A model generated the notes under the pieces. It worked only from the letters and a program-made list of their open reading frames with translations, was not told where the DNA came from and did not search any database. A DNA stretch of 64,000 bases from Euryarchaeota archaeon UBA28 (GTDB taxonomy: Archaea > Thermoplasmatota > Poseidoniia > Poseidoniales > Thalassarchaeaceae), in NCBI GenBank assembly GCA_002501605.1, contig DANW01000026.1, forward strand, positions 36,871 through 100,870, read 5' to 3'. How positions within the stretch are numbered: the first letter of the stretch is position 1; every line of letters starts with the position of its first letter. Positions 42,804 through 61,720 of the stretch are shown piece by piece. Both the position numbers and the translations under genes were made by a program.

Positions 42804-43976
42804 ATGGAAGAGGATGAGGTATTATTCAGTGTGAGGGAATCAAACCTTGATAGTGGCCTCAGAGGGATGCCAGTAGGAACTTGCGAAACATCCTATGTTG
42901 ACCCACTCAAAGGCGTTCATTACGTTGGATATCCAGTGGAGGATTTGGTTAATCTTGAGGAAGAAGACGTGGTCTTTCTGTTGCTGAATAAAGAACTCCC
43001 GACCCCGGAGCAGTCTGAGAAATTCAGAGCAGAACTCGCTCTTAGAGGGGAAACACTACCAACAGGGGCGTTGAGAGTCTTGGAATCACTCACGCCAGGA
43101 AGTGGGCATCCGATGGACTGGCTCGCCATTGGGATTATGGCTCTCGGGACAGCTGAGCAAACAGGAGATCCAAAGTCAGATTCGATGAACTTAATTGCAA
43201 GAATGCCGGAACTAATGGCCCGTGTATTCTTACTTAGAGGTGGCAAGAAGGAACAGCTTAGACCCAGAAAACCAGAGCTTGGACTTGTCGAGAACTTTGT
43301 CCATATGCTCGGAATTGATGGTGAAGAAGCTGAAAGGATGTGTAGAGTGCTGAGATTCTTTTTCATATTGCACATGGATCATGGGGGAGGCAATCTTTCC
43401 ACGTTCACTGGGAAAGCTGTTGCTTCAGGAAGGGCGTCTGTGTATGCCTCAATGGCCAGTGCGATGAATGCCCTGTCCGGGCCATTACATGGTAGGGCAA
43501 ATCAGGCTGTTTTGGAATTTATACAACGTATAGGGACATCCGATAGAGATGAAATAGAATCATTCGTAAATGCAGAGATAGATTCTAGAAGGCCAATTTA
43601 TGGATTTGGACATGGCGTTCTAAGGGCGGAAGATCCACGAGCGAGGCTCCTGATAGGCCTCGGAGATGAGATTTGTCCTGATAGTGAACTATACAAGATT
43701 GTCAAAGTCTTACGTGAAATCACTCCTGATATTCTAAAGGAAAGACTTCCGAAGATAAGAAATCCATATCCAAATGTAGATCTAGGAAGTGGAATGCTAC
43801 TTCATTCCGTAGGTTTCAGGAAGCCAGATTACTACACCACATTCTTCGGATGGGCAAGAGTGGCTGGAATATGCGCACAGATATTGGATGAGAGAAACTC
43901 AAGAGATGGCAGGGGGACCCCTATTTACAGGCCTAAGTACGTTCCAAAGAACCAGCCATTTAGGAGATTAGACTAG
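42804..43976 (+). CDS. gltA: Citrate synthase
   Basis: LHMDHGGGNLST and GFGHGVLRAEDPRA citrate-synthase signatures. Confidence 0.9.
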   Translation: MEEDEVLFSVRESNLDSGLRGMPVGTCETSYVDPLKGVHYVGYPVEDLVNLEEEDVVFLLLNKELPTPEQSEKFRAELALRGETLPTGALRVLESLTPGSGHPMDWLAIGIMALGTAEQTGDPKSDSMNLIARMPELMARVFLLRGGKKEQLRPRKPELGLVENFVHMLGIDGEEAERMCRVLRFFFILHMDHGGGNLSTFTGKAVASGRASVYASMASAMNALSGPLHGRANQAVLEFIQRIGTSDRDEIESFVNAEIDSRRPIYGFGHGVLRAEDPRARLLIGLGDEICPDSELYKIVKVLREITPDILKERLPKIRNPYPNVDLGSGMLLHSVGFRKPDYYTTFFGWARVAGICAQILDERNSRDGRGTPIYRPKYVPKNQPFRRLD

Positions 43977-45310
43977 TCACCTCTTACAGAAGCCAGAGCA
44001 TCTTCAACAGCTGCCATGGTTATCCTGTCCCCACTTTCCCTCACAATCTTTGCGACCTCCTCTACCTCACTACCCTCGGCTCCTGCGGCTGCAACCATAT
44101 TCATGAGATGCAATTTCATGTGTCCAGCTTGGATACCTACAGTCGCCAAGGCCCTTAGAGCTCCAAGATTTTGAGCCAAACCAGCCGCTGCCATGACTTT
44201 TGCAAGATCGTCAGCAGTCCTCAGTCCCAATAGGGCCACGTTAGCTTGGGCACCTGGGTGTATCCTAACTGCGCCCCCAACTAGTCCAACTGCCATTGGT
44301 ATTTCTATTGAGCCGACCAAGTTCCCCTCACTGTCCTTTTCCCAATGAGTCATTGATCCATATTCTCTTCTATAAGATGCGTATGAATGAGCACCAGACT
44401 CTATTGCTCGCCAATCTTGTCCACATGCTATTGCTATTGGGGAGATTGCATTCATTATTCCCTTATTGTGTGTTGTTGCCCTGAATGGATCTGCAGCCGC
44501 GAAGTGATACGCTTGAACAACTCCATCGATGACATTCAATCCGCCTTCCCTATCTAAACCATTATCGGACATTTCTTCTGGAGTGAATACTGCACTTACT
44601 TTTGCTAATCGATGAACAGCTAAGTTACTTATTATTCTCAGAATCACAGTCCCTGTGCTCAGCTCTTGTATCCTTGGAGCTATGGTTTCTGCCATTGTAT
44701 TGACCGCATTTGCCCCCATCGCATCTCTGCAATCAACCAAAATATGTACGATAACCATGGGCCCAGAGCCCGTCTCAATAATCCGGGCCTCGACGCCTTT
44801 GCATCCACCTCCAAATTTAACGAGTATGGGATCTACTTCATTGCATGCCTCAATCAGTTCACTCTCAGCTGAAAGTATAGCCATCTTGGCGGCCTCTGGA
44901 TCTTCACAACCCACAACTTGAATCTGTCCTATCATAACCGGCTCATCATTGTCAGAAACAAAACCTCCCTTGGAATGACACCTTTTCGCCATGTTAGAGG
45001 CCGCGGCCACAACACTCGCCTCTTCGACTACAAATGGAATTAGGTAATGCTCACCATCAATAATGAAATTTGTTGCAACTCCAATAGGGAGAGAATAAGT
45101 TCCGATCACATTTTCAATCATCCTGTCAGCAACTTCCTCTGAGAGCTCACCAACCGAGGCCCATGCACCCACCATCTCATCATCTAGTCCCGCTATATCT
45201 GCTAGCAAGCTCCTCCTCTCTGGGACAGATAGTTTGTAAAATCCTTTCAATCGACTGCTATCAACTGGCATGTTATCATGTCTCTTAGGCAGAAACACCC
45301 TTCTGTACAT
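43973..45310 (-). CDS. hmgA: Hydroxymethylglutaryl-CoA reductase, class II
   Basis: Near-collinear with my recollection of Pseudomonas mevalonii HMGR: SRLKGFYKLS, IENVIGTYSLP, VVEEASVVAAAS, DAMGANAVNTMAE, ATHNKGIMN, GLVGGA, and ALATVGIQAGHMKLH. Alternative start at 45271. Confidence 0.92.
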   Translation of the reverse strand: MYRRVFLPKRHDNMPVDSSRLKGFYKLSVPERRSLLADIAGLDDEMVGAWASVGELSEEVADRMIENVIGTYSLPIGVATNFIIDGEHYLIPFVVEEASVVAAASNMAKRCHSKGGFVSDNDEPVMIGQIQVVGCEDPEAAKMAILSAESELIEACNEVDPILVKFGGGCKGVEARIIETGSGPMVIVHILVDCRDAMGANAVNTMAETIAPRIQELSTGTVILRIISNLAVHRLAKVSAVFTPEEMSDNGLDREGGLNVIDGVVQAYHFAAADPFRATTHNKGIMNAISPIAIACGQDWRAIESGAHSYASYRREYGSMTHWEKDSEGNLVGSIEIPMAVGLVGGAVRIHPGAQANVALLGLRTADDLAKVMAAAGLAQNLGALRALATVGIQAGHMKLHLMNMVAAAGAEGSEVEEVAKIVRESGDRITMAAVEDALASVRGD

Positions 45311-45386
45311 TTCGCTTCATTTTCTCATTTAATATCATTTGATCGACATCTAGTATGTCCTCGAAATGAATCACCATCCTTAATTT

Positions 45387-45567
45387 AAAGCGTTAATATC
45401 TCCGTTAACGCTTCGTTAACGCATCATTTAAGCGTTAGAAAAGCGTTAATAATTATAGTACAAAATCGTACTACTAGTCTTATATCGAAAAAAATAATTA
45501 TCTGAAAAGCGTAAATATATGTTAATTTACATACTATTTTCCGTAAATAAACGTTAATATTATTTAC
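45387..45567. repeat. Array of GCGTTAA/TTAACGC heptamers and AT-rich dyads in the hmgA / orc-like intergenic gap
   Basis: GCGTTAA at 45390-96 and 45443-49. GCGTTAg at 45432-38, GCGTaAA at 45509-15, aCGTTAA at 45551-57. CGTTAACGC at 45403-11 and 45414-22. Dyads GTAAAT-N8-ATTTAC (45511-30) and GTAAATAA-N9-TTATTTAC (45543-67). Confidence 0.8.
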
Positions 45568-45582
45568 TCCTTCATTCGCATT

Positions 45583-47430
45583 GTGTCTGTGAAGAGTAGT
45601 ATGCCAGAGGAACTTGGGCTACCATTGCTCAGAGGCAATCCATTCGATCTCAGGCCAATCGAAAGTGGAAGGGCGGAATACTTGGTTGGAAGGGACCGAC
45701 TTATTTCATCATGGAGGGAACACATAGTTTCACAATCCCCGAGAATGATGTTGCTAGTCGGAGAGACGGGCTCCGGGAGGTCATCAATTGTCAGGACTTT
45801 GGCATCCCAAACCAAAAGGAGTTTCGTTGGGCAATTTTGGCCAATGAAAGATCCTGTTAATTCCATAATACATGAGCTCTCCATTCACTTCTGTGGTTTC
45901 GAATCCTCGGGATCCAACCAGAAGATGATAGATGACCTGGTCACTAATTTGGAGGAGTCTTCAGGTAACCTTCCAGTAGTTTCTCTAGACTACCCCTCTA
46001 ATGTAGACTTAGCCCCAGTCCTTTGCTCATTGTCGCCAATACTTCAAAGACTCAGAGCTTTGGTGATTGTAGTACTTACTCCTTCTCAGCTATCTACATT
46101 GGACGAAGAAACTACTGAGTTATATGATGTTCCTGAATACATCCCAAACCTGACAAAAAGTCAGATACAGGATCTTTCAAACAGACTCGTATCTAGGAAG
46201 GCTAGGGAGAAATGGATTATTGATGATGCCCTTCTTTCAAGAATCCACGAATCAACCTCCGGCAATCCTAGAGATGTAATAAGGCTACTCAGGGACCTTA
46301 CTGATGAGAGGAGAGACGTAGGCGCCAAGGGCACTTTAGAGAGGCTAATGCGTTGGCAAAAATCTACTATTGGGATCGGAGATGCCTCAGATGCCATAGG
46401 GGCATCGCAAAAAATTGTGGCTGAGGATGAAGAAAAAACTCGTCATGATAGTATTGGCGAAGAGAGTGAATATATCTCATCTCCACAACATCTACAGGAA
46501 AGACCCAGTCCGGTAGATGAAGCTGACGAAAAATCGGATGTAGATGATTTCTCTAATGAATCGGACATCTTAGACGTCACAAATAAACAATATGATTTAT
46601 TTAAAGAACCAAGTGATTTATGGATTCAGGATACAGAAGAATCTGAAAATAACGAAAAAAGCAGGAATGAGATGGGTAGAGAAACTGTATTTGAACAAGG
46701 TACCTTAGATGATTTTGTTTACATGGAGCCGGGTAGTGAACCTCCAATGTTTAATTCCGGTAACGGTTTCAAAGGACTGGCCAGTAGGTCTAGAGTGGCC
46801 CAAAATTCACAGCCCAATTCAGAGGAAGGTGCCCCATTTATTGAATCAATATCGGAGGTCCCGTCTCTATGGCCAGATAAGGAAACAGAATATCCTGAGA
46901 ACGTTGAAGCTCAAGATGGTATTTTTTTGGATGACAGTTACGATGGCGATAATGTAATCAAAAATCCGAAATCTATCCCTTCCAGTGTTATGTCCACGGA
47001 TTCTGCTCATTGGTCGGTGGAGCCTTCTATGAAATATTCATTACCTAGATTAGAAGATAAAAAGCCAGAAGCTTCACTTTTCGGTATCGATGATTCGCCG
47101 ACCGGTGAAATTTCCAATCTCCCTGTTCCTAAAATCGATATGAGTATGGACGCATATGAGGGAATCAATGCTTGGGAACCCGATCAGCCTCTAGATGAGA
47201 TTCGAAAAACTCTTCTCAACGAAGCCGAACTCTTAGTAATCTCAGTCGCGGCAAAGAGGGAGATATCTCCCTCCGATGCTGAACTACAAGCTAGATTAGA
47301 AGTTGGAAGGCCCAGACTTTCTCAGATATACAATGGCCTGCATAAATCAGGATTCCTGTCTGTAAGAAAACAAGGAAGAAAAAGACTATTCAAAATTACG
47401 GAAGCGGCTAAAAAACTGGTGGAGGCATAG
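45583..47430 (+). CDS. Orc1/Cdc6-like AAA+ protein with degenerate Walker motifs, long acidic linker and C-terminal winged-helix domain
   Basis: GNPFDLRPI...YLVGRD lead-in, P-loop-like LLVGETGSGRSS (Arg in place of Lys), Walker-B-like VVSLDYP, and a sensor-2-like SGNPRDVIRLLRDL. About 300 aa of D/E/S-rich linker follows. C-terminal wHTH-like LEVGRPRLSQIYNGLHKSGFLSVRKQGRKRLFKIT. GTG start; alternative ATG at 45601. Confidence 0.65.
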   Translation: MSVKSSMPEELGLPLLRGNPFDLRPIESGRAEYLVGRDRLISSWREHIVSQSPRMMLLVGETGSGRSSIVRTLASQTKRSFVGQFWPMKDPVNSIIHELSIHFCGFESSGSNQKMIDDLVTNLEESSGNLPVVSLDYPSNVDLAPVLCSLSPILQRLRALVIVVLTPSQLSTLDEETTELYDVPEYIPNLTKSQIQDLSNRLVSRKAREKWIIDDALLSRIHESTSGNPRDVIRLLRDLTDERRDVGAKGTLERLMRWQKSTIGIGDASDAIGASQKIVAEDEEKTRHDSIGEESEYISSPQHLQERPSPVDEADEKSDVDDFSNESDILDVTNKQYDLFKEPSDLWIQDTEESENNEKSRNEMGRETVFEQGTLDDFVYMEPGSEPPMFNSGNGFKGLASRSRVAQNSQPNSEEGAPFIESISEVPSLWPDKETEYPENVEAQDGIFLDDSYDGDNVIKNPKSIPSSVMSTDSAHWSVEPSMKYSLPRLEDKKPEASLFGIDDSPTGEISNLPVPKIDMSMDAYEGINAWEPDQPLDEIRKTLLNEAELLVISVAAKREISPSDAELQARLEVGRPRLSQIYNGLHKSGFLSVRKQGRKRLFKITEAAKKLVEA

Positions 47431-47432
47431 AT

Positions 47433-47726
47433 TTGAGTGACAATGTGGTTGTTACGCATGATCTGGTCAAGAAATATATTGCACTGACAGAGGCCGCTAG
47501 GGAAAAGGCAACTCCTGCCAAATTAAGTGAAGAAAACTCAGAAAAGCTATCATCAATGATTAGAATGTGTGATGATTATCTCTCTGATGCCAAGTACTTC
47601 ATGCAAAAGGGAGATATGGTCAGAGCTTTCGGTGCGATAAACTATGCCCATGCTTGGATAGATGCAGCTGTGAGAATAGGTTTCATGGACGGGAAAGGAG
47701 ATGACAACCTCTTCACACTCCCTTAG
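47433..47726 (+). CDS. DUF357-family archaeal protein
   Basis: 97 aa. DDYLSDAKYFMQKGDMVRAFGAINYAHAWIDAAVRIG matches the DUF357 helical-hairpin pattern. TTG start 2 nt after the previous stop. Confidence 0.55.
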   Translation: MSDNVVVTHDLVKKYIALTEAAREKATPAKLSEENSEKLSSMIRMCDDYLSDAKYFMQKGDMVRAFGAINYAHAWIDAAVRIGFMDGKGDDNLFTLP

Positions 47727-48088
47727 CCAATCAATCTTAACATCCTATCCGATACGACCTCGATATACTGACATCCAGATTTTGATAGCTTCTCTTTAAG
47801 CCGGGTATCAACTGTTAAAACCGGCCATTTATTTTCTCTAGAAAGCTCAACCAGCATCCTATCTGTATGATTTTGCCCCTTTGGGTCTTCGATTAATTTA
47901 CATCTTGATTTCAGTAACTCTAAGAGAAGACCACGCTTATTTTTAGCCAGATCTTCCAGCTCTTCCCAGACACTATTTATGACAATTAGCTCCGGTTTCC
48001 CTATTACTTTGGACATCTCTGAATCTAGATTTAGTCCAGATTTTACCAAGGCAACCCATCCACACGTGTCGACGAGAATCCCCGTCAT
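47723..48088 (-). CDS. PIN-domain protein (archaeal Fcf1/COG1412-like, conserved neighbour of aIF2-gamma)
   Basis: N-terminal ILVDTCGWVAL (first acidic residue) and TVDTRLKEKL near the C-terminus. 121 aa, directly downstream of aIF2-gamma. Confidence 0.65.
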   Translation of the reverse strand: MTGILVDTCGWVALVKSGLNLDSEMSKVIGKPELIVINSVWEELEDLAKNKRGLLLELLKSRCKLIEDPKGQNHTDRMLVELSRENKWPVLTVDTRLKEKLSKSGCQYIEVVSDRMLRLIG

Positions 48089-49353: not shown

Positions 49354-49848
49354 TCATTCCTCTTCACCGGAGGACTGATTGTCAGGAGCTTCCTCTTCCA
49401 CACCAAAAATCACACCCAGAGGCCTCTTCCCAGCCTCAACTATTTTCAGATTGATTTGCCTAGTCTCTTGACTTATGACATTTCCACGGAGATTCCTCCT
49501 TTTCCTTAGCCCGTCATACTTGTACCTGTATGTCTTGCCCTTTTTGTTGACCTTCTTATCGCCTTTGTACCCTATTCCGGCAGTAATCAGTACCGATTTA
49601 ACTCCACTGCCATCTAAATCCGGCCTCATTGGTCTTCCTGTAAGATCCGAACCTCCTGTGATTTCTAATCGGTATCCGGTTAGTGATTGGTCACCCTCTC
49701 CGACGAACATTCCATCTACTGAGTCTCCTATCTTCTTACCGAGGAAATGGTTGTAATTTGAACCAGTAATTTCCATGGAGAAAGCACGGCCCCCATACTT
49801 CGGATTAGTGTCGTTAACGACTGCCTTGAATGACTGCTCGCCTGCCAT
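49354..49848 (-). CDS. rps6e: 30S ribosomal protein S6e
   Basis: The segment with ..ITGGSDLTGRPMRPDL.G.....LL..G.G... is a typical eS6 core. Acidic C-terminus. Confidence 0.88.
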   Translation of the reverse strand: MAGEQSFKAVVNDTNPKYGGRAFSMEITGSNYNHFLGKKIGDSVDGMFVGEGDQSLTGYRLEITGGSDLTGRPMRPDLDGSGVKSVLITAGIGYKGDKKVNKKGKTYRYKYDGLRKRRNLRGNVISQETRQINLKIVEAGKRPLGVIFGVEEEAPDNQSSGEEE

Positions 49849-49918
49849 ATTTACTCCTCGGACGGCAACCCGACATAAGGCCCCTATAAGAGCGGTTCGG
49901 AAGCCAACCGAATATCAA

Positions 49919-51127
49919 TCAGCGGTTCATGAACTCCTTCTCTATCCTGCTCCCTATTGTGGCAGGTGAGGTATTACTCATTGTAATGTAAGTAGTTCTG
50001 CCCCTTCCAACAGTGGTATTGGTCGACCTCGCTTCCAGTAGCCCTTTGGTTTCTAAAGACTTCAGATGCTTCCAGAAGGTGGTATAACTCCTAGTTTTAA
50101 TTGAAAACTCTTCACACACAAGTTCGTATAGCTTACGAGCATCACCACTGGATATTTCCTCCACCTTACGCAACCTCCTACAAATCCCTAGGAGAATCAG
50201 TTTTTGATGAGTGCCAAGGGAATCAACTTGACTCGGCTCCACTGAAGCTGTCCTAAGGGTACTGGGCATAACATCACCAATATTCACCTCTCCCCTGCCG
50301 TCCATCTCCGCTCTTCGTACAGCAGCCTCAAGGAGCTCAATAGCTAGGCGCGCATCACCGGTCTCAGAAGCAAATCTGCCGATCTTTTCCAATACTTCTT
50401 CACTCACCGAACCGGGCTTACATGAAGCCTCGTAACGCTGTCTGGATATCCCTACAAGTCCCTCGAAGTCATAAGGCTCTAGTCCCAAAACATTACTCTC
50501 CCCCAATCTAGAGATTATCGCCGGTTCTAACATGCTCATCAAGGAAGGGTCCTGACTCACCAGAATCAGTGAAACCGTCCCCTGATTACCCTGCCCCTCG
50601 TCTATTCGAAGAAGTTTGTATATCAAATCACTACTGTCTCTCCTAACAAGCACGTCCACCTCATCCAAAACAAGTATCATGTGGAGCCCTCTCGATCGAA
50701 TGTTTCTCCGTATTGACTGAATAATCTCTCCAGAGCTGAAGCCTCTCTCGGGATGCCTCGAGTCAAGAGACAGAGCAATCTGTTGCAATACTTGGGAAGT
50801 GGAGGGGTGATTCCTACAGTTTACGTGCGAAAGAACAATCTTTCTGATGCCATCCATTTCCCTTACTACATCCTCCCCAAATCTCCTAGTCAGAACCGTC
50901 TTTCCGGTGCCTACATGGCCAACAACTACTGCCCGACCACTGACATTTTCGTTCCCGATACCCATGAACATCGAGGCTAGTGATTCCAGCTCTCTTTCCC
51001 TGCCAACCAATAGAGGAGGGGTCCAATCGAATGATAGGGGCCCTCTGTCTAGAAGGACTTTGCCCGCTCCTATCCTGTCTAAGTACCCCGCCATCAGAGT
51101 ATAATTACCAACATCGTTCTTAGACAT
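49919..51127 (-). CDS. cdc6: Orc1/Cdc6 replication initiator
   Basis: LVGRERELESL, Walker A GHVGTGKTV, Walker B LVLDEVD, sensor-2 GDARLAIELL, and a C-terminal winged helix (..GRGRTTYI..). Confidence 0.92.
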   Translation of the reverse strand: MSKNDVGNYTLMAGYLDRIGAGKVLLDRGPLSFDWTPPLLVGRERELESLASMFMGIGNENVSGRAVVVGHVGTGKTVLTRRFGEDVVREMDGIRKIVLSHVNCRNHPSTSQVLQQIALSLDSRHPERGFSSGEIIQSIRRNIRSRGLHMILVLDEVDVLVRRDSSDLIYKLLRIDEGQGNQGTVSLILVSQDPSLMSMLEPAIISRLGESNVLGLEPYDFEGLVGISRQRYEASCKPGSVSEEVLEKIGRFASETGDARLAIELLEAAVRRAEMDGRGEVNIGDVMPSTLRTASVEPSQVDSLGTHQKLILLGICRRLRKVEEISSGDARKLYELVCEEFSIKTRSYTTFWKHLKSLETKGLLEARSTNTTVGRGRTTYITMSNTSPATIGSRIEKEFMNR

Positions 51128-56698: not shown

Positions 56699-61392
<4,694 letters not shown>

Positions 61393-61720
61393 TTATCATG
61401 CTACAACCTAACGGTAGGGGGTTATTCAACTCTGCGAATATATTTAGAAAAATATGTCATTTTTTACTACTTTTTTCTCTTTGTGAAAAGGTAAATTACG
61501 ACTTCCTCAAACATCTCCAAGTATGTACTAGAACACTGCCTTAATCCTGTGATGAGATGCTTGAAAAGGACTAACCAATAGTTTTTCTTTATTCATAATC
61601 TAGAATATTCCACGTCCAACTTTACTAGCTCCTCTTTTTTCAAATCAGGGAAATTGTGAGCTACCTCCGTTCTCTAATCACACGACACGATTAAACAGAA
61701 TCCTAGGGTCGAAGCATCGG

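What the first reader, a model, noticed from the sequence alone, without database searches (positions are those of the whole stretch)
45311..45582. AT-rich 272-bp gap packed with GCGTTAA/TTAACGC heptamers and nested dyads: candidate replication origin or multi-site operator
In a genome where most genes abut, this gap lies between divergent hmgA and an Orc-like gene. It carries at least 7 copies of one heptamer in both orientations. These are GCGTTAA (45390-96, 45443-49), GCGTTAg (45432-38), GCGTaAA (45509-15) and aCGTTAA (45551-57). Two CGTTAACGC units (45403-11, 45414-22) present the motif on both strands around a GTTAAC core. Three copies share the longer form AAAGCGT(T/A)AAT (starting 45387, 45440, 45506). 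The distal, almost pure A/T part holds two related dyads, GTAAAT-N8-ATTTAC (45511-30) and GTAAATAA-N9-TTATTTAC (45543-67), each with GTTAA at its centre. That is far more sites than a simple promoter needs. Archaeal origins show the same grammar of repeated boxes, an easily melted stretch and an adjacent AAA+/winged-helix gene, although this motif is not the classical ORB consensus. The canonical orc1/cdc6 lies 4.3 kb away and has no sizeable gap of its own.
Basis: partly seen in the sequence, partly recalled or inferred. Interest (0 to 1): 0.72.

Follow-up and report, generated by a model that had tools for sequence, protein, structure and literature searches.

The report
Conserved GCGTTAA-box array in marine archaea
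The gap holds a real array of about nine short DNA boxes that is kept in every Marine Group II archaeon examined, always in front of an unnamed ATPase-plus-DNA-binding gene; it is most likely that protein's own docking and control site, and a role as the replication origin is neither shown nor excluded.

Summary
Every coordinate is correct. All four exact GCGTTAA heptamers of the 64-kb window, and 10 of its 61 CGTWAR cores, lie in this 272-bp gap.

The window comes from a Poseidoniales (Marine Group II) archaeon. The array is conserved across the order: boxes are invariant, spacers vary freely, and the five-box core keeps a fixed 14/11/17/11 spacing. A strict core pattern hit 93 stretches among 185,579 species genomes. 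Every hit lies between hmgA and the same 615-aa gene.

The array keeps a constant distance to that gene, not to hmgA. Its last boxes abut the gene's TATA-like element.

The protein is an unnamed, narrow family. It has an Orc/Cdc6- or STAND-like P-loop domain with degenerate Walker motifs, a 280-residue disordered linker, and a confident ArsR/SmtB-type winged helix.

Best reading (0.55): a cooperative, autoregulatory multi-site operator for the adjacent protein.

The origin reading (0.25) has only circumstantial support. A canonical Orc1-1-type cdc6 lies 4.3 kb away with no gap of its own, and no canonical ORB occurs in the 64 kb. Against it, there is no skew switch, the neighbouring genes point towards the gap, and the melting stretch is not consistently AT-rich.

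The parts
43973..45310 (-). hmgA, class-II HMG-CoA reductase; the divergent left neighbour
   Evidence: Pfam HMG-CoA_red 5.9e-102; NCBIfam TIGR00532 7e-126
45311..45582 (.). Whole intergenic gap, GC 0.28
45328..45337 (-). TATA-like element about 23 nt upstream of the hmgA start codon (inferred hmgA promoter)
   Evidence: Read from the sequence; partly conserved in alignment A1; promoter role is an inference
45387..45398 (+). Box 1, AAAGCGTTAATA
   Evidence: Invariant core in 12/12 close and 78/89 order-wide loci
45403..45413 (-). Box 2, AAGCGTTAACG on the minus strand; with box 1 it forms the perfect 9-8-9 inverted repeat AAGCGTTAA-N8-TTAACGCTT
   Evidence: (I9)
45414..45424 (-). Box 3, ATGCGTTAACG on the minus strand, 11 bp from box 2
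   Evidence: (D6)
45430..45438 (+). Box 4, AAGCGTTAG
45440..45451 (+). Box 5, AAAGCGTTAATA, 11 bp from box 4 (a 7+4 tandem)
45452..45505 (.). AT-rich, poorly conserved spacer. In close relatives CG (45467-68), ACT (45473-75) and CT (45479-80) are invariant; only 'tAct' stays conserved order-wide
45506..45517 (+). Box 6, AAAGCGTAAATA
45519..45525 (+). Box 7, ATGTTAA; degenerate here, ACGTTAA in most relatives
45541..45547 (+). Box 8, CCGTAAA
45548..45559 (+). Box 9, TAAACGTTAATA; it overlaps the BRE/TATA position of the downstream gene
45553..45566 (+). TATA-like element TTAATATTATTTAC, about 25-30 nt upstream of the start codons at 45583/45589 (inferred promoter of the 615-aa gene, leaderless or short leader)
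   Evidence: Sequence; order-wide consensus gCGTgAAtaTTAaGaA about 30 nt before the ATG; promoter role is an inference
45583..47430 (+). 615-aa protein ('ATPwH'). Residues about 37-256: Orc/Cdc6- or STAND-like P-loop domain plus lid. Residues 258-535: acidic disordered linker with conserved islands. Residues 536-615: ArsR/SmtB-type winged helix
49919..51127 (-). Canonical Orc1-1-type orc1/cdc6, 4.3 kb to the right; context, not shown to be part of the element
   Evidence: Pfam Cdc6_C, Cdc6_lid and AAA_22; best PDB matches 1fnn, 2qby_A, 2v1u

Best explanation
The gap is a cooperative multi-site binding array, an operator, for the protein encoded immediately downstream.

Proposed mechanism:
- The C-terminal ArsR/SmtB-type winged helix of the 615-aa protein reads the asymmetric box A-x-a-A-w-G-CGTTAA-y.
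- The N-terminal Orc/Cdc6- or STAND-like nucleotide-binding domain drives self-association, so tandem boxes 10-11 bp apart (one helical turn) and the inverted pair 9-8-9 fill cooperatively.
- The five-box core, with fixed 14/11/17/11 spacing, is the nucleation platform.
- Occupancy of the promoter-proximal boxes (8 and 9 here) next to the TATA-like element shuts off the protein's own gene (negative autoregulation), possibly through a loop to the core.
- An effect on the divergent hmgA promoter is possible but secondary.

Shown: enrichment, order-wide conservation, fixed spacing, exclusive linkage to this gene, a box abutting the TATA-like element, and the fold of the two protein domains.

Inferred: that this protein is the binder, that binding is cooperative and nucleotide-dependent, and that the outcome is repression.
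For: 1. The boxes are footprints. In 12 loci whose protein is 60-89% identical, the CGTTAA cores are invariant while spacers vary freely. The order-wide consensus over 78 loci keeps all core boxes.
2. The core pattern TTAACGCNTNGTTAAC-N12-CGTTA gave 93 stretches among 185,579 species genomes, about 4 expected by chance. Every hit with enough flank carries hmgA and/or the ATPase-wHTH gene beside the array.
3. The distance from the core to the ATPase-wHTH start is about 190-230 bp in most loci (shorter, about 130 bp, in the MGIIa-type loci). The distance to the hmgA start varies from 3 to 207 bp.
4. The last boxes abut a conserved TATA-like element about 30 nt before the ATG.
5. The C-terminal domain is modelled at pLDDT 90. 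Its top 50 PDB fold matches are all ArsR/SmtB/MarR-type regulators, TM about 0.7 (sequence level).
6. The recognition-helix stretch EVGRPRLSQIYN..L..G.LSVRKQGR.RLF is nearly invariant across the family, matching the invariance of the boxes.
7. The most divergent family members, including ones with a canonical GKT Walker A, still have CGTTAA/TTAACGC boxes upstream.
8. Clusters are exclusive to this gap: 104 clusters in 107 sources at the locus, none elsewhere in those 907 kb, and none in a further 584 kb of gyrB loci.
9. The geometry has precedents: GCGTTAG-AAAA-GCGTTAA is a 7+4 tandem, and AAGCGTTAA-N8-TTAACGCTT is a 26-bp inverted repeat. Forward-strand box starts are phase-coherent at a 10.7-bp period, resultant 0.88.
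Against: - No binding data exist. The link between this protein and the boxes rests on co-occurrence and co-conservation only.
- The five-box core lies 135-195 bp upstream of the inferred transcription start. That is far for an archaeal repressor and needs looping or an activator-type role.
- Nine boxes is many for simple autoregulation.
- The Walker A lysine is replaced by arginine and the Walker B lacks the catalytic glutamate, so nucleotide-driven switching is uncertain.
- Whether the protein has other targets could not be tested, because no complete genome could be scanned.
- Promoter positions are inferred from sequence, not from transcript data.
Confidence: 0.55

Rival explanations
1. 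The array is the chromosomal replication origin, or one of several, of Poseidoniales. It would be a non-canonical origin whose boxes replace ORBs. It would be recognised by the adjacent Orc/STAND-like ATPase-wHTH protein acting as or with the initiator, or by the nearby Cdc6, with the AT-rich spacer as the melting region. Boxes at the promoter would autoregulate the initiator gene, as at many origins.
For: - The Orc1-1-type cdc6 is always about 4.4-4.7 kb away in the order-wide loci (about 3.8-5.1 kb over all lineages sampled), with conserved synteny.
- The gaps flanking cdc6 are short (54-62 bp upstream in 19 of 21 loci, 70-96 bp downstream). They hold only the S6e promoter and leader and no repeats.
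- No canonical ORB occurs anywhere in the 64 kb, although sister Methanomassiliicoccales have ORBs beside orc1/cdc6.1 (PMC4153887).
- The array occurs at one locus in each of the genomes where it was found, with boxes in both orientations, and sits in the most AT-rich gap of the window.
- The best fold matches of the N-terminal domain are Cdc6, Orc1 and Orc4.
- Archaeal origins can depend on their own adjacent, non-canonical initiator (PMC3607249 and PMC3936714, abstracts).
- A PIP-box-like motif QGTL[DE]DFV lies in the linker of the main clades.
Against: - The boxes bear no resemblance to ORB or mini-ORB.
- The DNA-binding domain is ArsR-type, not the Cdc6 winged helix.
- The Walker A and B motifs are degenerate.
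- A third-position skew regression shows a strong transcription effect (t about 7) but no side effect at 45.45 kb (t = -0.1). Power is low in 64 kb.
- The twelve consecutive genes to the right, including aIF2-gamma, S6e and gyrase, are transcribed towards the gap, so they would meet a fork from here head-on.
- Gap GC tracks genome GC (r = 0.87). In high-GC lineages the lowest 40-bp window is 0.28-0.43 GC, and in several such loci the spacer itself is not AT-rich.
- No relative of the protein was found on viral contigs.
Confidence: 0.25
2. The boxes are the operator of a different transcription factor encoded elsewhere. That factor would co-regulate the divergent pair, chiefly hmgA, the committed step of isoprenoid-lipid synthesis.
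For: hmgA is the left neighbour in every locus. The core lies 80-140 bp upstream of its start in the window. In some lineages the first box lies within a few bp of the hmgA start as placed by tblastn.
Against: The distance to hmgA varies from 3 to 207 bp, while the distance to the other gene is constant. The promoter-proximal boxes overlap the other gene's TATA-like element, not that of hmgA. Boxes and the wHTH of the adjacent protein persist together over the full breadth of the family.
Confidence: 0.1
3. The array is a chromosome-organisation or segregation site (centromere-like, or an SMC-loading site) bound by the ATPase-wHTH protein.
For: The array is seen at a single locus in each genome sampled, with phased boxes. 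In basal lineages smc, a 409-422-aa gene of unknown family, and scpB lie directly left of hmgA. ArsR-type winged helices serve as archaeal centromere binders; this last point is from my own knowledge of the pNOB8 AspA system and was not checked here.
Against: No ParA- or SegA-type partner gene is in the locus. The smc linkage is absent from the window's family. There is no evidence of spreading or of secondary sites.
Confidence: 0.06
4. The pattern reflects a structured RNA, or chance similarity within AT-rich DNA.
For: Several inverted repeats could fold.
Against: No Rfam family matches in the gap. Conservation falls on the box letters, not on pairing partners. Both inferred promoters lie outside the five-box core, between it and their genes, so the core is probably not transcribed. 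Chance is excluded by the simulations and by 93 independent genomes.
Confidence: 0.02

Closest known systems
Archaeal oriC: ORB/mini-ORB repeats flanking an AT-rich stretch next to orc1/cdc6 (reviewed in PMC4010727; ORB consensus in PMC4153887, table 2)
   Same: Repeated short boxes in both orientations, an AT-rich stretch between them in this genome, a neighbouring gene for a P-loop-plus-winged-helix protein, canonical cdc6 within 4.3 kb, and boxes reaching into the neighbouring gene's promoter.
   Different: The box sequence is unrelated to ORB (TTCCAsTGGAAA...GGGG). The adjacent protein has an ArsR-type rather than a Cdc6-type winged helix and degenerate Walker motifs. There is no skew or gene-orientation signature. 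The AT-rich stretch is not conserved as AT-rich.
Origins specified by their own non-canonical or paralogous initiator (Sulfolobus oriC3/WhiP, PMC3607249; Haloarcula origin-specific Orc paralogues, PMC3936714)
   Same: The concept of a cis array plus a dedicated adjacent DNA-binding protein inherited as one module.
   Different: Those are experimentally mapped origins. Here no replication evidence exists.
Saccharolobus Orc1-2, an Orc1/Cdc6-family protein that acts as a transcription regulator (PMC6061795, PMC9738581)
   Same: A precedent that an initiator-like AAA+ plus winged-helix protein can be a promoter-binding regulator rather than an initiator.
   Different: Orc1-2 is a bona fide Orc1/Cdc6 member (ISM plus Cdc6 winged helix) with a dispersed regulon of single short motifs. 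It does not have one dense array at its own gene.
ArsR/SmtB-family repressors and their inverted-repeat operators at their own promoters (fold matches HlyU, SqrR, SmtB, BigR, CzrA)
   Same: The fold of the DNA-binding domain; a 26-bp inverted repeat (9-8-9); boxes overlapping the protein's own promoter.
   Different: ArsR proteins are stand-alone dimers of about 100 aa with one or two operators. Here the domain is the tail of a 615-aa protein with a P-loop domain and a long disordered linker, and there are about nine boxes, mostly in tandem.
Tandem winged-helix binding to 7+4 direct repeats (OmpR/PhoB pho boxes), and STAND-type oligomerising regulators with arrays of asymmetric boxes (MalT). 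Both are from my own knowledge and were not checked here.
   Same: An 11-bp period of 7-nt boxes with 4-nt A-rich spacers; mixed direct and inverted arrays read by a nucleotide-dependent oligomer.
   Different: There is no homology to either family. No receiver domain or TPR/WD sensor domain is present in the window's protein.
Iteron replicons and dnaA-oriC modules with initiator autoregulation (from my own knowledge)
   Same: The initiator gene is preceded by repeated binding sites that serve both for assembly and for autorepression.
   Different: Iterons are longer (17-22 bp) uniform direct repeats. No extrachromosomal or viral relative of this module was found.

Membership tests
Archaeal ORB-type replication origin | Two or more ORB/mini-ORB elements matching the archaeal consensus (TTCCA-N-TGGAAA dyad with or without a G-string) | tested here: not met
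   The full ORB pattern with up to 3 mismatches gave 0 matches in 64 kb. The dyad with up to 1 mismatch gave 8 matches against 8.1 expected, none in the gap or beside cdc6. Consensus taken from PMC4153887.
Archaeal ORB-type replication origin | Inverted repeats flanking an AT-rich unwinding element | tested here: inconclusive
   Boxes occur in both orientations and the 45452-45505 spacer is AT-rich here. In high-GC relatives the lowest 40-bp window of the gap is 0.28-0.43 GC, and gap GC tracks genome GC with r = 0.87. Spacer sequences of several such loci are not AT-rich.
Archaeal ORB-type replication origin | Immediately adjacent orc1/cdc6 initiator gene | tested here: not met
   The canonical cdc6 is 4.3 kb away with four genes in between. 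The adjacent gene is not an Orc1/Cdc6 family member (rows below).
Archaeal ORB-type replication origin | Strand-composition switch or marker-frequency peak at the site | tested here: inconclusive
   The third-position skew regression finds no side effect at 45.45 kb (t = -0.1), but only 64 kb was available. Read-depth analysis is not possible with these tools.
Orc1/Cdc6 protein family (for the 615-aa protein) | Matches the family models (Cdc6_lid, Cdc6_C/WHD_Cdc6, COG1474-type AAA+) | tested here: not met
   Only sub-threshold AAA_16, AAA_22 and nSTAND1 hits. hhalign against the window's own Cdc6 gave probability 4.7%. No Orc or Cdc6 chain was among the PDB sequence hits.
Orc1/Cdc6 protein family (for the 615-aa protein) | Canonical Walker A GxxGxGK[ST] and Walker B hhhhDE | tested here: not met
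   Walker A is GE[TR]GSGR[ST], with K replaced by R, in the window and the main clades; only the basal members P0191 and P0192 keep GKT. Walker B is hhhhD-x-P family-wide.
Orc1/Cdc6 protein family (for the 615-aa protein) | Initiator-clade AAA+ fold | tested here: inconclusive
   Top Foldseek matches are Cdc6/Orc1/Orc4 (7jgr_G at 4.5e-8, 8s0e_A, 2v1u_A, 2qby_B). MuB, NB-ARC (NRC2) and RFC follow within about 1-2 orders of magnitude. The model has two helices between strands 2 and 3, compatible with an initiator-specific motif.
Orc1/Cdc6 protein family (for the 615-aa protein) | C-terminal Cdc6-type winged-helix domain directly after the lid | tested here: not met
   The C-terminal domain matches ArsR/SmtB/MarR regulators in all top 50 fold hits, with no Cdc6 winged helix among them. 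It is separated from the lid by a disordered linker of about 280 residues.
ArsR/SmtB winged-helix regulators | ArsR-type wHTH fold and sequence signature | tested here: met
   pLDDT 90; HlyU, SqrR, SmtB, BigR and CzrA at TM about 0.7. BigR NCBIfam hit 6.7e-6, below its cut-off. PDB phmmer hit to BigR at 0.0016.
ArsR/SmtB winged-helix regulators | Stand-alone dimeric protein of about 100-120 aa | tested here: not met
   The domain is residues 536-615 of a 615-aa multidomain protein.
STAND NTPase regulators | STAND NTPase core plus a C-terminal repeat sensor (TPR, WD40 or similar) | tested here: inconclusive
   AAA_16 and nSTAND1 hits are sub-threshold and NB-ARC fold matches are near the top. 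The G-x-P motif (GNPR/GNPG) after the core resembles the STAND GxP motif (the comparison is from my own knowledge). The protein has no sensor repeats. In basal and MGIIa lineages a separate 343-348-aa gene with a repeat-rich, possibly beta-propeller sequence (my reading of the translation; no Pfam hit) overlaps its stop codon.

The most novel reading that the evidence does not exclude
This array is the chromosomal replication origin of Marine Group II archaea. It would be specified not by ORB/Orc1-Cdc6 recognition but by GCGTTAA boxes read by a lineage-specific hybrid protein: an Orc/STAND-like P-loop domain, a disordered linker carrying a PCNA-interaction-like motif, and an ArsR-type winged helix. 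That would be a new kind of archaeal origin and initiator pair in one of the ocean's most abundant archaeal groups.
Probability: 0.2. Interest if true: 0.85.

Novelty: new variant of a known kind. Interest (0 to 1): 0.6.

Why it matters
Poseidoniales (Marine Group II) are among the most abundant planktonic archaea and remain uncultured. My literature searches found nothing on their replication origin. No source in the protein searches gives this family a name.

The work defines an order-wide cis-element with a clear box consensus and fixed geometry. It also defines its probable partner, an unnamed and narrowly distributed protein family with an unusual architecture.

If the pair is a regulator with its operator, it is a ready-made system for in-vitro study in an uncultured lineage. 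It would be a second example, after Orc1-2, of an initiator-like ATPase used for transcription control.

If the array is the origin, it would give the anchor needed for peak-to-trough growth-rate estimates of MGII from metagenomes. It would also show a non-ORB archaeal origin. Either outcome can be tested with existing metagenomes and recombinant protein.

Tried and rejected
1. Canonical ORB search in the window: nothing.
2. The gaps flanking cdc6 as an alternative origin: 54-96 bp in nearly all loci. One holds an ultra-conserved S6e promoter and leader, the other is unconserved, and neither has repeats.
3. The 362-bp gyrB|aroD gap (61359-61720), whose palindrome TTGAGGGTTCC-GTA-GGAACCCTCAA looks ORB-like. 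In 80 gyrB loci the stem is kept through compensatory changes and the loop flips, so it is a hairpin in the gyrB leader and not an ORB. It is present as a single copy.
4. Skew test: third-position GC skew follows transcription only, with no switch at the gap. This is underpowered.
5. Rfam and tRNA scans: nothing in the gap.
6. Viral and plasmid origin of the module: no protein relative in IMG/VR. The heptamer-pair DNA scan returned chance-level hits plus two unrelated iteron arrays.
7. Regulon search: only about 1.5 Mb of Poseidoniales DNA around two loci was available. It contained no second cluster. About 30 of 80 gyrB-locus upstream regions share a single box in one conserved context, probably by common descent.
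8. My first collection scan used a mis-counted spacer and found nothing; it was repeated correctly.
9. Sequence-level homology of the protein to Cdc6: hhalign and PDB hmmsearch were negative.
10. Literature searches for an MGII origin or for this motif: nothing found.
Full report
THE OBSERVATION

All four exact GCGTTAA matches on either strand of the 64-kb window fall within 45390-45449. With the degenerate core CGT(T/A)A(A/G), 10 of the window's 61 copies are in the gap. That compares with 0.26 expected per 272 bp and a maximum of 2 in any other 272-bp stretch. None of 20,000 composition-matched simulations of the gap reached that number.

The gap is the most AT-rich gap of 80 bp or more in the window (GC 0.28) and the second longest.

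Repeat analysis adds three structures:
- the perfect inverted repeat AAGCGTTAA-N8-TTAACGCTT;
- the 11-bp tandem CGTTAACGCTT/CGTTAACGCAT;
- the 7+4 tandem GCGTTAG-AAAA-GCGTTAA.

Forward-strand box starts are phase-coherent at a 10.7-bp period, with a resultant of 0.88 for 8 sites.

CONTEXT

The window is from a Poseidoniales (Marine Group II) archaeon, judged from the record titles of related loci. The local gene order is as follows:
- citrate synthase;
- hmgA, a class-II HMG-CoA reductase, on the minus strand;
- the gap;
- a 615-aa gene on the plus strand;
- DUF357;
- then on the minus strand a PIN_9 protein, aIF2-gamma, ribosomal protein S6e, a canonical orc1/cdc6 at 49919-51127, and dph2.

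The cdc6 is of the Orc1-1 type; its best PDB matches are 1fnn, 2qby_A and 2v1u.

CONSERVATION

The gap was aligned across 12 loci whose 615-aa protein is 60-89% identical. The CGTTAA cores and a few flanking letters are invariant, while the spacers between them vary freely. This is the classic footprint pattern of protein-binding sites.

They resolve into further boxes, because most relatives have ACGTTAAT where the window has ATGTTAAT, followed by a TATA-like element.

An exact-pattern scan for the core (TTAACGCNTNGTTAAC-N12-CGTTA) over one genome for each of 185,579 species returned 93 stretches, against about 4 expected by chance. They come from both Poseidoniales families. One contig is binned as 'Acidimicrobiaceae' but carries hmgA and the ATPase-wHTH gene beside the array. 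In every hit with enough flank, the array lies between hmgA and the homologue of the 615-aa gene. Wherever the stretch reaches that far, the downstream genes through cdc6 and dph2 are syntenic.

In 78 of 89 distinct gaps the five-box core keeps the identical 14/11/17/11 spacing. The gaps hold on average 7.7 boxes, and the extended consensus is A-x-a-A-w-G-CGTTAA-y. Poseidoniaceae-type loci carry a rearranged but equivalent array: TTAACGC-N5-6-TTAACGCGTTAAC-N4-GCGTTAAC-N4-GCGTTAA, then two more boxes, then a TATA-like block.

Clusters of two or more heptamers within 150 bp occur exactly once per locus at this position. They occur nowhere else in 907 kb of these loci, nor in a further 584 kb around gyrB.

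WHICH GENE THE ARRAY BELONGS TO

The distance from the core to the start of the 615-aa gene is about 190-230 bp in most loci, and shorter, about 130 bp, in the MGIIa-type loci. The distance to the hmgA start ranges from 3 to 207 bp.

The order-wide consensus ends with gCGT.A.tAtgCGTgAAtaTTAaGaA about 30 nt before the ATG. In the window this corresponds to boxes 8 and 9 (45541-45559) running into TTAATATTATTTAC (45553-45566), 25-30 nt before the possible starts at 45583 and 45589.

By the usual archaeal promoter geometry (established knowledge; inference here), the last box sits on the BRE/TATA of a leaderless or short-leader transcript. The array is therefore tied to the 615-aa gene.

THE PROTEIN

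No source in the homologue search gives the family a name. The family is narrow, with 187 representatives at E < 1e-3 among 1.84 billion cluster representatives.

N-terminal domain:
- It is modelled with pLDDT 80-90.
- Its best PDB fold matches are Cdc6, Orc1 and Orc4, followed closely by MuB, NB-ARC proteins and RFC.
- Pfam gives only sub-threshold AAA_16, AAA_22 and nSTAND1 hits.
- A profile comparison with the window's own Cdc6 is insignificant.
- Walker A is GE[TR]GSGR[ST], with arginine in place of lysine; only the most basal members keep GKT.
- Walker B is hhhhD-x-P, without a catalytic glutamate.
- A GNPR/GNPG motif follows the core.

Linker. Residues 258-535 are acidic and predicted disordered. 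They carry conserved islands: a family-wide G[FL]xGLxxRx[RK] motif and, in the main clades only, QGTL[DE]DFV, which resembles a PCNA-interaction box. The resemblance is from my own knowledge and is untested.

C-terminal domain. The last 80 residues fold with pLDDT 90 into an ArsR/SmtB-type winged helix. All top 50 fold matches are ArsR/SmtB/MarR-type regulators and none is a Cdc6 winged helix. Its recognition-helix stretch is almost invariant across the family.

Basal members. The most divergent full-length members still sit next to hmgA, or at a contig end. They are followed by DUF357, PIN, aIF2-gamma, S6e, cdc6 and dph2, and they still have CGTTAA/TTAACGC boxes upstream.

So 'Orc-like' is acceptable as a loose fold description. 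The protein nevertheless fails the defining tests of the Orc1/Cdc6 family.

MOST LIKELY MECHANISM (confidence 0.55)

The winged helix of the 615-aa protein reads the boxes. The P-loop domain mediates self-association, so that tandem boxes one helical turn apart and the inverted pair fill cooperatively. The fixed-geometry core nucleates the complex. Occupancy of the TATA-proximal boxes represses the gene.

What is shown: the enrichment, conservation, geometry, linkage, promoter overlap by sequence, and domain folds. What is inferred: the identity of the binder, cooperativity, nucleotide dependence, and the sign of regulation.

The 7+4 tandem geometry is that of winged-helix response regulators on pho boxes. 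The mixed direct and inverted arrays recall MalT-type STAND regulators. Both comparisons are from my own knowledge. Saccharolobus Orc1-2 shows that an initiator-like ATPase plus winged helix can be a transcription regulator (PMC6061795).

THE ORIGIN READING (confidence 0.25)

Points in favour:
- The Orc1-1-type cdc6 is always about 4.4-4.7 kb away in the order-wide loci, and about 3.8-5.1 kb over all lineages sampled.
- cdc6 has no intergenic room of its own in any relative.
- No canonical ORB exists in the 64 kb, whereas sister Methanomassiliicoccales have ORBs beside orc1/cdc6.1 (PMC4153887).
- The array is seen at one locus in every genome sampled.
- Dedicated adjacent initiators are known in archaea (PMC3607249; PMC3936714).

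Points against:
- The boxes are unrelated to ORBs.
- The binding domain is of transcription-factor type.
- The Walker motifs are degenerate.
- A regression of third-position skew on gene orientation and side shows only a transcription effect (t about 7) and no switch at the gap (t = -0.1). The test is underpowered.
- Twelve consecutive genes to the right, including S6e, aIF2-gamma and gyrase, are transcribed towards the gap.
- Gap GC simply tracks genome GC (r = 0.87). High-GC relatives have no strongly AT-rich stretch.

Autoregulation and origin function are not mutually exclusive.

OTHER RIVALS

- An operator for a different factor controlling hmgA (0.10). The variable distance to hmgA argues against it.
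- A centromere-like or SMC-loading site (0.06). The hint is that smc and scpB lie left of hmgA in basal lineages.
- A structured RNA or chance (0.02). This is excluded by the Rfam result, by the conservation pattern and by the statistics.

NOVELTY AND VERDICT

The literature searches found no description of a Marine Group II origin. I did not search the literature for the motif or the protein family; no source in the protein search names the family. As a kind, a multi-site autoregulatory operator (or possibly an origin with an adjacent initiator) is known. The specific box, its fixed order-wide architecture, and the hybrid Orc/STAND-like plus ArsR-type protein are new. I therefore rate it 'new variant of a known kind', with interest 0.6.

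The decisive tests use existing metagenomes and recombinant protein: read-depth profiles on closed MGII genomes, whole-genome skew and motif scans, and footprinting.

Noticed in passing
window 61368-61392 (gap 61359-61720, upstream of gyrB 59400-61358 on the minus strand): Perfect hairpin TTGAGGGTTCC-GTA-GGAACCCTCAA about 10 nt before the gyrB ORF. In many of the 80 Poseidoniales gyrB loci, mostly MGIIb-type, the stem is kept through compensatory changes (GAGGGTTCC, GAAGGTTCCC, AAGGGCCCC) and the loop flips (GTA/TAC). This points to a conserved structured element in the gyrase leader, not an ORB.
   Followed up: partly
window 49853-49905 (between rps6e and the 3' end of cdc6): A block of about 50 nt, almost invariant across the order (…CGAACCGCTCTTATAGGGG…GTCGGG…CCGTCC…AGGTG on the minus strand). 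It is probably the S6e promoter plus 5' leader.
   Followed up: partly
L004, L015, L024, L054, L085, L105, L227, L229 (contig ends): About 8 of about 110 contigs carrying this locus end inside the hmgA|ATPase-wHTH gap, roughly four times my rough chance estimate. This may reflect strain-level hypervariability of the spacers or poor coverage of AT-rich DNA.
   Followed up: no
L229 2026-3057; L106 9646-10683; L228 6640-7686; L227 2092-3129; L105 1932-2972; also L030, L055, L093, L048: Basal and MGIIa lineages have an extra gene of 343-348 aa with no Pfam hit and a repeat-rich, possibly beta-propeller sequence. It starts at or just after the stop codon of the ATPase-wHTH gene, overlapping it in most of these loci. 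It is absent from the window (no tblastn match) and was detected only in MGIIa-type loci among those held. It may be a lost sensor partner.
   Followed up: partly
window 46696-46719 (protein residues 372-379): QGTLDDFV, a PCNA-interaction-box-like motif (QxxLxxF+hydrophobic) in the disordered linker. It is conserved in the main MGIIb clades but not in basal members. A second linker island, G[FL]xGLxxRx[RK], is conserved family-wide.
   Followed up: partly
L106 419-6200; L228 1-3041: In basal lineages smc, a 409-422-aa gene (possibly scpA) and scpB lie immediately left of hmgA, so they sit next to the box array.
   Followed up: no
gyrB loci L259-L264 and L309 (about 210 nt upstream of gyrB, next to the aroD start); L235, L237, L238, L239 (about 60 nt upstream of gyrB): About 30 of the 80 gyrB-locus upstream regions carry a single TTAACGC box in the conserved context GAGCGTTAAGAAG. 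Four carry a TTAACGTTA(A/G) element, a full palindrome in two, just before the gyrB hairpin. These could be isolated sites of the same binding protein or simply shared ancestry.
   Followed up: partly
window 49811-49820 (inside rps6e): The palindrome TCGTTAACGA, containing CGTTAACG, lies within the S6e coding sequence. CGTTAACG is found at the matching position in the 11 close-relative loci that reach it. Coding constraint most simply explains this.
   Followed up: partly
L213 1730-1850; L192 2700-2790 (IMG/VR contigs): Two unrelated virus-like contigs carry iteron-style arrays built on the same heptamer (GCGTTAAATATGCGATGCGCTTCTATT repeats; TTTTTAACGCA x3). This is coincidental similarity, not homology.
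   Followed up: partly
window 45000-48000: GC content is 0.41-0.42 against 0.45-0.48 in most of the window. It covers the gap, the ATPase-wHTH gene, DUF357 and the PIN gene.
   Followed up: no
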